Shown here piece after piece: positions 15,201 to 18,200 of a stretch of DNA of 64,000 nt. The translations under genes were made by a program, and so were the position numbers. The notes below the pieces were generated by a model that saw only the letters and a program-made list of their open reading frames with translations, did no database searches and was not told the DNA's origin. Origin of the DNA: Callorhinchus milii. Taxonomy: Eukaryota. Location of the stretch: the NCBI RefSeq assembly GCF_018977255.1, contig NW_024704748.1:25792001-25856000 (forward strand), in the 5' to 3' direction. Within the stretch, counting starts at the first letter, position 1; the number at the start of each line of letters is the position of its first letter.

Positions 15201-18200
15201 CTGTAAACTGTATTGCAAATATTCTACATAATGATTCCTTGGTGTCCTGCGTTCTCATCTCAAGTATGAGACACTCTGAATATGTTTCTGCAAATAACCA
15301 TGTATCTATTCATCATGTGCAGAGTCACTTGTTTAGGTATCTTGAATTTTATTTAACAGTTTCATTCATTAGAAATAGTAATGACCATCAGAGGACAGTA
15401 TCTGTATCTTTGTATGTGGTCAGCTGTTCCATTCTTACATCAGTTGTGACATAAATAGACAATTGGCTGCCACTCAGACGGTTAAACTTGCTCTCAGTAA
15501 GTACTACAGCACTTAGTGCAGTACAACTGGGGCATAAAACTGAAAGAGGGAACTGAGTACAGTCCTAGCCTGTCAGACAAGTATTTCTCCCCCCCCCTCT
15601 TTGTATGCTTTTATGTTATTAAAAGTCTTAATAAATCCTTGTAATTATTAACTAGTTATTTTTTAAAATGACAATGAACTGTCTTGAATTGCCTGTATCA
15701 TATTTCAGAAGATTTTACAGCTTATCTGTCCTCTCATTTAACTACTTGTACCCTATCCATTGAGCAGGGCAAAGTTTGATTTGGCCATTGCCTTGGAATG
15801 TCATGCTTTCCTGAATCTTGATGCCAGAATGTTCTATTGGAACTAGTGTTTTGGAACTGGGCATTTGAGTGTAAATGGGAGAGAGGGAAGAGAGACAGGA
15901 ATTGAAATGCAGAGTGAATTGCACAAACAATGGTATGGGACCATGTTTGTTATCAGTGTTGTATCTGATATAGTTTCACTCCAGGACTGTTTGCATTTCC
16001 TCCCAAATTGCCTGGTTCATTTGGATCTCAATTGTGCAATGCCCCTCCATATGCCAGACTCTGCATTTTGAACACATTTTCAGGAAGTGTATATTTATTA
16101 AAATGGCTTTAATGGCACATTTTCACTTCTATGAAGATTGAGATAAACTTGTCTCTTGATAGCATTTTCTTGCTTTCTCTTCTTTGATGGCAGATCTGCC
16201 AAGGGCACAGATAAAGGAAATGCTGGAGGGCAGGGGACTACTTTACCTATGACTTTGCTTTATGTTCAGTTTGCAAGAAGACGTAACTTGCAAATTGCAA
16301 AAGGCTAGTGTTTTGTTTCAGGTTAATACAACATTCCGATATCAACTATGTCAAAAAATGCACAGGCATGTATAAATCTGAAGAGGGTTTCACACTGGTC
16401 TGAATGAATATAGGGGGATATCTTATTAGCTGCAGCACCAATGATGCAATAAGCTAGTTTCTGCAGTTATTTAACCACAACTCGCTTAGGTCTGTTTGTA
16501 GTACTCATTTGCTACCAGTTGGTGTTGCTCGCACACTGGCAAAATAACTTTCACATTCAGAATAGTTTATACTTTGTACTCTACAAACTTTGGTGCTAGA
16601 TCCCTGTGGAAAATAAATGGTTTCTTATTCTACTGCATCATCTTTTTCCATTGATAAATGTGGCATGTGACCTCACTTTTTACTGTGGCTTGATATATTT
16701 GACACTGATTCTTGGTATTAGTTCTTTAAAATGATTAATGCAAGATACAGCATGTACAAAGCTACCGAATGTATTCATTTAAATCTGAATGAAAGCGCTG
16801 TGTAAGCCAAGGAGAGGCTGAGCATGTTTATTGTTGACTACCTATTAGAGTAACATTGGTGCCGGATGTTTTTTTTTTACTGTTCACCTATCTTTATTAC
16901 CTAAAACAAGTAAGTGAAATGAATAAGCTTGTGTAATTTTCAACAGAAGGCCACTTGTACACTGCTTTTACACAGGCTGCAGAAATATTGGAGAAATGTA
17001 CAGCTTTTCGTAGTTTCAAGTCACAATTAAAAGTAATAGCATTCTGGTTATTTTACAGAATTGCTCTTAAGAATGGACAGGATCCCCATGGCTAACTGCA
17101 AGGAACTGTGCACACTGGAAGTTCATTAACTCAGTTGTAGATTTTTCTCATTTCTATTTATTCTCTTTTTATAAACTTATAGATTTGATTGTTAACCTTT
17201 TTAATGTGCTCTCTGTAGTGCGAATTTCATATTCCCAATCATATTTGACGTGCTTAAAAATCCTATGTAATTATGTTGTTCGTACTGGTGTGCTTAGTAT
17301 TGTTTAGTTTCATATTCATTTTCTAAATTTCTGAAAGTCTCAATTTTTCAAAATTTACAGCTGCCCACAGTCCAAAAAGAGGGTAGAGAATTGACCATAC
17401 CGAGAAAAATAAAGAATTCAGTTAACAGGCGATGTATGCCTTTTTAATTCTTATTTTTTCCTCTTTTATGAATTTTTATATTTCAAGTATTTGTGTGGCT
17501 AGGTAGAACACAGCATTAGCAGATCTATATAGAGATGCATGGTTAAGGACAATTGGATCCAGTTGTATTTTGTGGTATGGAATATTTCTCATCAGTGTTA
17601 GCAAAGGGTTAGTGTTTAAGTCTGTTCAGAACAGTTCATGGTTTCCAGTTCAATATAAGTGAAAGAGTTCAGGTTCCTGCAGTTTGCATGTTTATTATTT
17701 AACTATTGTACTGAAGATGAGCTTTAGTAGAGGTTAAAGTGAATAGTTACAATGGGATATTTAAAAATCCATGTTTTTTTTTTGAAGTTGACTTGTGCTG
17801 ACGATACAGTGTGTGTGGTTCCTTTTAATTTGTTCAGGGCTGTTTGGGGACTTTATTTTCATTCTGTTGTGTATTCACACAGGGATGCTCGTGTTGTAAA
17901 GGACTTGTCAACAGGGAAGTCTAAAGGCTATGGATTTGTGTCATTCTACAATAAACTGGTAAGTTTTTTTTTCTGAATTCAGTTGCTAAACAATAATAAT
18001 TCCTGCCTTTGGTATAGTGCCTGATCACATTGGAATTATGTCTCAGGATTTACTGTGAAATGGAGTGACGGGATCTCGGTTTATCATCTCATCCAGAGAA
18101 AGGCACTTCCAACAGTGCAACACACACCAGTACTGCATTTGAGTACCATCTTAGACTATGTGAGATGAAGTCCTGACATGGGTCTTAAACCCACAACCTT

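What the first reader, a model, noticed from the sequence alone, without database searches (positions are those of the whole stretch)
17059..17180. Poison exon A in intron 5 resembles the known truncated TIA1 tail, suggesting autoregulation older than the TIA1/TIAL1 duplication
Seen: joined to exon 5 it reads [16 protein letters not shown] (TAA at 17093) and is followed by weak GT sites and a long U-rich tract (gtagatttttctcatttctatttattctcttttt). From memory, to be verified: a truncated human TIA1 transcript ends FGRIS-VSLKNGQNCPG* at the equivalent intron. Established: TIA1/TIAR bind U-tracts after weak 5' splice sites, recruit U1 snRNP via U1-C, and activate such exons in their own pre-mRNAs. 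Inference: a homologous splicing-NMD feedback exon retained in both paralogues and in chondrichthyans.
Basis: partly seen in the sequence, partly recalled or inferred. Interest (0 to 1): 0.7.

Follow-up and report, generated by a model that had tools for sequence, protein, structure and literature searches.

The report
Ancient poison exons shared by TIAL1/TIA1
An intron of the elephant shark splicing-factor gene TIAL1 holds two short stop-codon segments that also sit, in the same order, in the same intron of its sister gene TIA1 and match extra exons annotated in land vertebrates, so a self-limiting splicing switch already known from mammals likely predates the duplication that made the two genes.

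Summary
Confirmed. The gene is TIAL1/TIAR (spliced protein identical to NCBI's Callorhinchus milii TIAR). Segment A (17059) reads [16 protein letters not shown]; stored isoforms end IAHKNGQDLEG* (bird and turtle TIAR) and VSLKNGQNCPG* (mammal TIA1, known exon 6A). A second stop segment, B (17361-17433), lies 300 nt downstream. The same intron of TIA1, on another contig, carries A, B, both U-tracts and two TGCATG sites in the same order: A and B are 79-83% identical, against 39% at fourfold-degenerate sites, and the other 10 intron pairs share nothing. So the cassette predates the duplication. Likely mechanism, by homology: excess TIA protein activates the weak donors, giving an early stop and decay. 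Limits: no junction reads could be examined; A's donor is unresolved (17133 or 17136); in this genome's TIA1 copy A has lost its in-frame stop, so the peptide tail is not what is conserved. The mechanism is known; I found no paper on the paralogue homology. The scan reported the same story twice before, in other cartilaginous fish.

The parts
3207..21633 (+). TIAL1/TIAR coding span, 12 exons (3207-3235, 7817-7913, 10652-10750, 12366-12420, 14257-14344, 17883-17958, 19839-19947, 20167-20262, 20390-20474, 20942-21065, 21200-21342, 21512-stop)
   Evidence: 373-aa spliced product identical at all 373 positions to P0008, named nucleolysin TIAR X1 of Callorhinchus milii; groups with TIAR rows in a tree; RGS-domain exons downstream
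14257..14344 (+). Exon 5, first half of RRM2, ends FGRIS in phase 2
17024..17058 (+). Conserved acceptor region of segment A
   Evidence: 29 of 35 nt identical to the TIA1 paralogue
17059..17136 (+). Segment A, predicted poison exon, 75 nt (donor TCA|GTTGTA, ends 17133) or 78 nt (GTT|GTAGAT, ends 17136); TAA at 17093-95 gives a 134-aa product
   Evidence: 66 of 84 columns identical to paralogue; homologous tails in 33 stored vertebrate proteins; donor not determined
17137..17180 (+). U-rich tract behind the weak donors of A, predicted TIA1/TIAR site
   Evidence: U 0.60, top 1.3% of intronic GTs; paralogue 0.50-0.53
17361..17433 (+). Segment B, predicted second poison exon, 73 nt, [15 protein letters not shown] (133 aa), donor GAT|GTATGC; its last AT plus the first G of exon 6 forms an AUG
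   Evidence: 73 of 88 columns identical to paralogue; tails CPNSKMMVEN* (grouse, pig TIAR) and CPQPKKG* (zebra finch TIA1); 251-aa MDARVVKD isoforms annotated in sharks and skates
17434..17491 (+). Donor and U-rich tract behind B
   Evidence: U 0.675 in both paralogues, top 0.1% of 1079 intronic GTs
17536..17547 (+). TGCATGGTTAAG, Rbfox-type motif in a 12-nt block shared with the paralogue
   Evidence: 103 and 128 nt behind the B donor in the two genes; 3 of 300 shuffles give so long a common string; Rbfox motif identity recalled
17685..17690 (+). Second TGCATG, with a counterpart in similar context in the paralogue
   Evidence: each intron has exactly two TGCATG, all four between B and the next exon
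17883..17958 (+). Exon 6, second half of RRM2

Best explanation
Segment A is the elephant shark TIAL1 counterpart of mammalian TIA1 exon 6A and one half of a two-segment cassette (A and B) that both paralogues carry in the same intron, and it likely works as a TIA-activated poison exon that sends the mRNA to nonsense-mediated decay. Shown: the segments, their stops, weak donors and U-tracts, their homology between TIAL1 and TIA1 in this genome and to annotated vertebrate isoforms, and hence an origin before the duplication. Inferred from mammals: the exons are mostly skipped because their 5' splice sites are weak; when TIA1 or TIAR is abundant it binds the U-tract, recruits U1 snRNP through U1-C and the exon is included; the stop falls inside RRM2, about 670 nt before the last junction, so the mRNA is predicted to decay. 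Both proteins read the same tracts, so each gene would limit itself and its sister and the loop would hold the sum of the two proteins steady. Rbfox at the two TGCATG sites may tune the threshold (speculative).
For: Paralogue: of 11 matched intron pairs only intron 5 has same-intron matches, two of them, collinear, E 7e-26 and 3e-31, each with 2 hits in 154 kb; the other 31 of 33 matches join different introns and 30 of them are multi-copy. Genome-wide 3 matches in all. Identity 79-83% against 53 of 135 (39%) at fourfold-degenerate sites. Orthologues: of 447 stored proteins 359 carry FG[RK]IS; 33 continue with an A-like tail (10 TIAR-type, 22 TIA1-type, 1 unlabelled; 27 stop after exactly 11 residues, as here) and 7 with a B-like tail (6 TIAR, 1 TIA1); named carriers are mammals, birds, turtle, lizard, snake, wrasse and cod. 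Read-through models of snake and cod TIAL1 follow the window through the donor region (LSCRFF). Four shark and skate TIAR isoforms of 251 aa begin MDARVVKD, exactly the ORF that the B-to-exon 6 junction creates; mouse and manatee have the 252-aa form. Papers: human exon 6A is a 66-nt cassette with 11 unique residues and a stop (PMC4286123, passages and section 3.1); TIA1 or TIAR overexpression switches on stop-containing exons in both genes (PMC4385921, passage and supplement legends); in mouse cells a Tia1 NMD isoform rises on Tia1 overexpression with Upf1 knockdown (PMC3967051, passages); U-tract and U1-C mechanism (PMC2964331, passages).
Against: No junction evidence from this species. None of the 33 A-like tails comes from a named cartilaginous fish (the cluster listings showed at most 15 members each). 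A's donors are very weak (2 and 4 of 9). In this genome's TIA1, A has no in-frame stop and is 72 or 75 nt, so alone it would not trigger NMD; B (77 nt, frameshift) would. Six of 33 A-like models read through the stop position, by real change or by annotation. Human sTIA-1 is reported as a detectable 16-kDa protein, and human TIA-1 overexpression did not induce exon 6A in cancer cells (PMC4286123). In mouse cells autoregulation was not significant at steady state. Database isoforms are predictions and not independent of each other.
Confidence: 0.75

Rival explanations
1. A is used mainly as an alternative acceptor or terminal exon: the transcript runs from 17059 to B's stronger donor (375-nt exon) or ends at an intronic poly(A) site, giving either NMD through a shared donor or a stable 134-aa RRM1-plus-half-RRM2 protein.
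For: A's own donors score 2-4 of 9, B's 5 of 9 with the best U-tract; AATAAA at 17408-13 inside B, ATTAAA at the same place in TIA1; snake, cod and devil models run through A's donor into the tract; sTIA-1 protein reported in human cells.
Against: The donor block CTCAGTTGTAGATTT and the tract behind it are kept in both paralogues; human 6A is a 66-nt cassette by RT-PCR, and in the gap-free peptide alignment that 66-nt end falls on the GT at 17134; the same long exon would be 829 nt in this TIA1. A poly(A) hexamer is common in AT-rich sequence.
Confidence: 0.12
2. The short peptide tail is under selection and the truncated protein is the product.
For: An 11-residue tail with a stop at the same place in 27 stored proteins of both paralogues.
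Against: The frame is broken in this genome's TIA1 while the DNA is kept; conservation runs on past the stop and into both flanks; tails differ at 5-6 of 11 residues between paralogues.
Confidence: 0.05
3. The segments are conserved for another reason (enhancer or protein-binding element) or are vestigial here and are not spliced in this fish.
For: No reads examined; very weak donors.
Against: Conservation is centred on AG acceptors and GT donors with U-tracts in both genes; homologues are annotated exons; the B junction leaves a trace in shark and skate isoforms.
Confidence: 0.05
4. The likeness between paralogues comes from later gene conversion or a shared repeat, not from the pre-duplication gene.
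For: The 3' half of shark TIA1 A is closer to TIAL1 than to mammalian TIA1, judged from read-through peptides.
Against: No other copy in the genome search; fourfold-degenerate sites are at 39% and the other 10 intron pairs share nothing; the genes lie on different contigs, each beside its known neighbour; tetrapod TIA1 and TIAL1 both carry A and B tails, which a shark-only conversion cannot explain.
Confidence: 0.03

Closest known systems
Human TIA1 exon 6A / sTIA-1 (PMC4286123; first described by Le Guiner et al. 2001, PMID 11514562, not held, title seen in reference lists)
   Same: Same intron (after FGRIS), same phase, 11 new residues then a stop, homologous sequence (16 of 21 nt to the printed siRNA target), weak donor followed by a U-tract.
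   Different: Here it is in TIAL1, 75 or 78 nt against 66, with a different 3' half; no protein or inclusion data for this species.
TIAR/TIAL1 stop-containing alternative exons (PMC4385921 passage and supplement legends; TIAL1 named among 7 stop-exon genes with ultraconserved cDNA segments in PMC3064809; candidate PTC event in PMC3973340)
   Same: Same gene; TIA-induced stop exons and NMD are published for human TIAL1. That chicken TIAR has two such exons is recalled (Le Guiner 2003, not held).
   Different: I could not see the figures, so which published exon name belongs to A or B is not established; no cartilaginous fish in those papers' passages.
SRSF4/SRSF6 homologous poison exon (Lareau and Brenner 2015, PMC4379411, passages)
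   Same: A poison exon present before a vertebrate duplication and kept in both copies, with relaxed constraint in one.
   Different: That paper describes turnover after duplication as the usual course; here two segments, two tracts and two TGCATG sites are kept together.
Cross-regulating RBP paralogue pairs PTBP1/2, hnRNPL/LL, hnRNPD/DL, RBM10/5 (review PMC11062102, passages)
   Same: Auto- and cross-regulation by unproductive splicing.
   Different: Other factors and motifs; TIA acts by activating weak donors through a downstream U-tract.

Membership tests
TIAL1/TIAR orthologue | Three RRMs plus Q-rich tail with TIAR-type residues and grouping with TIAR | tested here: met
   373 of 373 identical to P0008; exon 3 scores best on PDB TIAR 2cqi; tree (no starred branches); RGS neighbour
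TIA1 exon 6A-type poison exon | Lies in the intron that splits RRM2 after FG[RK]IS and is homologous in sequence | tested here: met
TIA1 exon 6A-type poison exon | In-frame stop more than 50-55 nt upstream of a later junction (rule recalled) | tested here: met
   Window gene: stop 671-674 nt before the last junction. Not met by A alone in this genome's TIA1.
TIA1 exon 6A-type poison exon | Weak 5' splice site followed by a U-rich tract | tested here: met
   2-4 of 9 consensus matches, U 0.60, top 1.3%; simple match count, no MaxEnt model
TIA1 exon 6A-type poison exon | Spliced into mRNA in this species as a cassette | tested here: inconclusive
   No reads were laid; indirect trace for B in other cartilaginous fish; none for A
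TIA1 exon 6A-type poison exon | Inclusion rises with TIA1/TIAR level and needs the U-tract | not testable with these tools
   Published for mammals, with one contrary result
TIA1 exon 6A-type poison exon | Included mRNA is degraded by NMD | not testable with these tools
   Predicted from position only
Paralogue-shared (pre-duplication) poison exon, SRSF4/SRSF6 type | Homologous element in the orthologous intron of both paralogues, above neutral divergence, not a repeat | tested here: met
Paralogue-shared (pre-duplication) poison exon, SRSF4/SRSF6 type | Present in a pre-duplication outgroup (lamprey, hagfish, amphioxus) | not tested
   No such genome reachable; none of the 11 invertebrate-type proteins printed shows the tail

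The most novel reading that the evidence does not exclude
The whole cassette (A, B, two U-tracts, two Rbfox-type sites) was copied at the early vertebrate duplication and still couples the two genes, and its outputs are not only decay: in TIAL1 the B-to-exon 6 junction builds an AUG, kept from sharks to mouse, that makes a 251-aa TIAR lacking RRM1 and half of RRM2, while in elephant shark TIA1 exon A has turned from a poison exon into an in-frame 24-25 residue insert inside RRM2.
Probability: 0.1. Interest if true: 0.6.

Novelty: new member of a known kind. Interest (0 to 1): 0.3.

Why it matters
The feedback itself has been known since 2001. What this locus adds is a date and an anatomy: the same two segments, tracts and TGCATG sites in both paralogues of a cartilaginous fish put the switch before the TIA1/TIAL1 duplication and before the split of jawed vertebrates, a case of retention where PMC4379411 describes turnover as usual. 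The shark pair marks the few bases worth mutating in a minigene. It also offers a splicing explanation to test for a 2026 preprint (10.64898/2026.09.24.754217, passages) in which TIA1 rises after TIAL1 knockout in an NMD-dependent way; its main text holds neither 'splicing' nor 'poison', but it reports no TIA1 mRNA rise after TIAL1 promoter loss, which counts against that explanation.

Tried and rejected
A degenerate exon A motif found 0 matches in metagenome contigs. The tree has no starred branch and the outgroups are long; gene identity rests on the 100% match and the neighbours. Other intron-intron matches between the paralogues were rejected as repeats or cross-intron hits (31 of 33). The 402-408 aa shark TIA1 isoforms were checked for an in-frame exon A insert: their extra residues lie after exon 3 or at the C-terminus, not after FGRIS. 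Papers not held: Le Guiner 2001 and 2003, Ni 2007 (PMC1820944), PMC5816707. No relevant passage in PMC9318959, PMC6547761, PMC8836218, PMC9794549 (term searches only). Searches for a paper on TIA1/TIAL1 poison exon homology or its age found none (listings only, most subscription journals are missing); the figures of PMC4286123 and of the PMC4385921 supplement (14 of 19 pages are pictures) could not be seen and may name or show these exons.

Full report
Gene. Twelve exons between 3207 and 21633 splice to a 373-aa protein identical at all 373 positions to P0008, named nucleolysin TIAR X1 of Callorhinchus milii, which also carries the 17-aa extension of exon 3. Exon 3 scores best on a solved TIAR domain. 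A search of the own genome with exon 5 gave 2 matches, the window and C28:58547-58630. The C28 gene was rebuilt as 12 exons with the same phases; its protein reads like P0327, named TIA-1 of the same species. RGS-domain exons follow the window gene and C2orf42 follows the C28 gene, as in fused gene models of squirrel and goat. So the window is TIAL1 and C28 is TIA1. The tree of 19 proteins agrees but has no starred branch.

Observation. Exon 5 ends at 14344 in phase 2. The AG at 17057-58 opens a frame [16 protein letters not shown] with TAA at 17093-95. The scored candidate donors match the consensus at 2-4 of 9 positions against a median of 7 for 22 constitutive donors; the tract behind 17134 and 17137 is 60% U, above all 22 constitutive donors and in the top 1.3% of 1079 intronic GT sites. 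The stop lies about 670 nt before the last junction, so NMD is predicted by the usual rule (recalled).

Paralogue test. The same intron of TIA1 holds two matching segments: window 17024-17210 to C28 54738-54561 (75% over 189) and window 17328-17491 to C28 53985-53816 (79% over 171), in the same order. A genome-wide search with 17067-17500 gave only these and self (the tool notes such counts are lower bounds). Comparing all 11 introns with all 11 gave 33 matches: the only 2 between matching introns are these, each with 2 hits in 154 kb; 30 of the other 31 are multi-copy and one is a weak cross-intron hit. Core identity is 29 of 35, 66 of 84, 30 of 36 and 73 of 88 columns, against 53 of 135 fourfold-degenerate sites. 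This is purifying selection on an element older than the duplication.

Segment B. The second segment has an acceptor at 17361, reads [15 protein letters not shown] and ends at GAT|GTATGC (73 nt), followed by a tract of 67.5% U in both genes. Behind it both introns carry exactly two TGCATG, one in a shared 12-nt block that 3 of 300 shuffles reach. Rbfox2 tunes a Tia1 NMD exon in mouse, but there it binds upstream and represses (PMC3967051, passages), so the link to these sites is only a lead.

Other vertebrates. Three protein searches and three cluster listings left 447 stored proteins; 359 carry FG[RK]IS; 267 continue normally, 26 end there, 33 have an A-like tail, 7 a B-like tail and 26 something else. 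TIAR-type: IAHKNGQDLEG* in blackbird, grouse and turtle, read-through forms in snake, wrasse and cod; CPNSKMMVEN* in grouse and pig. TIA1-type: VSLKNGQNCPG* in mouse, primates, deer and carnivores, VSLKNGQNCHG* in birds, MSLKNGEQCHG* in anole; CPQPKKG* in zebra finch. So both tetrapod paralogues have both exons. These are predicted, related entries, not independent observations, and none of the A-like tails is from a named cartilaginous fish. For B there is an indirect trace: its last AT plus the first G of exon 6 makes an AUG and a 251-aa ORF, and 4 of the 15 listed members of the shark TIAR cluster are 251-aa proteins that begin MDARVVKD; no candidate donor of A gives that AUG.

Human link. 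PMC4286123 (passages and section 3.1) describes TIA1 exon 6A as a 66-nt cassette between exons 6 and 7 giving 11 unique residues and a stop, the same event that Le Guiner et al. 2001 induced by TIA-1 overexpression. One siRNA target printed there matches the window best at 17078, 16 of 21. If the devil and snake read-through peptides are aligned without gaps, the 66-nt end falls on the GT at 17134, which favours the 75-nt form; the GT at 17137 is the better donor by consensus. Both are kept in the paralogue. The donor is unresolved.

Results against the reading. In this genome's TIA1, A carries a 2-nt and a 1-nt deletion: the TAA is present but out of frame, and inclusion of 72 or 75 nt would give a full-length protein with a 24-25 residue insert; only B, A plus B, or an inner acceptor 11 nt further on gives an early stop. 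This may be real or an assembly error. It shows that the peptide is not what selection keeps, and that 'poison exon A in both paralogues' does not hold literally here. No reads were laid. PMC4286123 reports a stable short protein and no induction by human TIA-1; PMC3967051 finds autoregulation only above a threshold.

Mechanism. Shown: anatomy, homology, age. Inferred from mammalian work (PMC2964331, PMC4385921, PMC3967051; passages): TIA1 or TIAR binds the U-tracts, brings U1 snRNP to the weak donors, the exon is included, translation stops inside RRM2 and the mRNA decays; both proteins read both genes. I put 0.95 on the pre-duplication origin, about 0.8 on A being spliced in this fish and 0.75 on the whole explanation.

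Novelty. The mechanism and the mammalian exons are known, and a poison exon shared by paralogues is known from SRSF4/SRSF6 (PMC4379411, passages). Eight searches showed no paper stating that the TIA1 and TIAL1 exons are homologous or reach back to cartilaginous fish; the original papers were not held. Two earlier notes of this scan report the same for TIA1 of other cartilaginous fish; they were read after my own tests and are not counted as support. Verdict: real, well supported as a conserved element, a new member of a known kind, interest 0.3.

Noticed in passing
window 17432-17433 joined to 17883: The B-to-exon 6 junction creates an AUG for a 251-aa ORF (MDARVVKD...), matching annotated TIAR isoforms of sharks, skates, manatee and mouse; TIA1 does not form it because its next exon starts with T.
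   Followed up: partly
window 17408-17413; G000:C28:53900: AATAAA inside segment B and ATTAAA at the same place in TIA1, 20 nt before the donor and its U-tract: a possible intronic poly(A) site competing with the donor.
   Followed up: partly
window 17536-17547 and 17685-17690; G000:C28:53747 and 53105: Two TGCATG (Rbfox-type) sites between B and exon 6 in both paralogues, one in a shared 12-nt block.
   Followed up: partly
G000:C28:54703-54629 (-): TIA1 copy of segment A has 2-nt and 1-nt deletions, no in-frame stop, and would insert 24-25 residues into RRM2; real change or assembly error.
   Followed up: partly
window 10601-10651: Alternative acceptor of exon 3 adding 17 residues (the TIARa form), present in P0008.
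   Followed up: yes
window 46821-52569 (+): Exons of an RGS-domain gene (RGS10-like by recalled synteny) downstream of TIAL1.
   Followed up: partly
stored proteins P0316, P0319, P0324: Shark TIA1 isoforms carry a conserved 30-residue in-frame extension after exon 3 (VEVSQLAVMSF...), inside RRM1; not looked for on C28.
   Followed up: no
window 2061-2900: Long (GTT)n-type low-complexity array next to a run of N, just upstream of the TIAL1 first exon.
   Followed up: no
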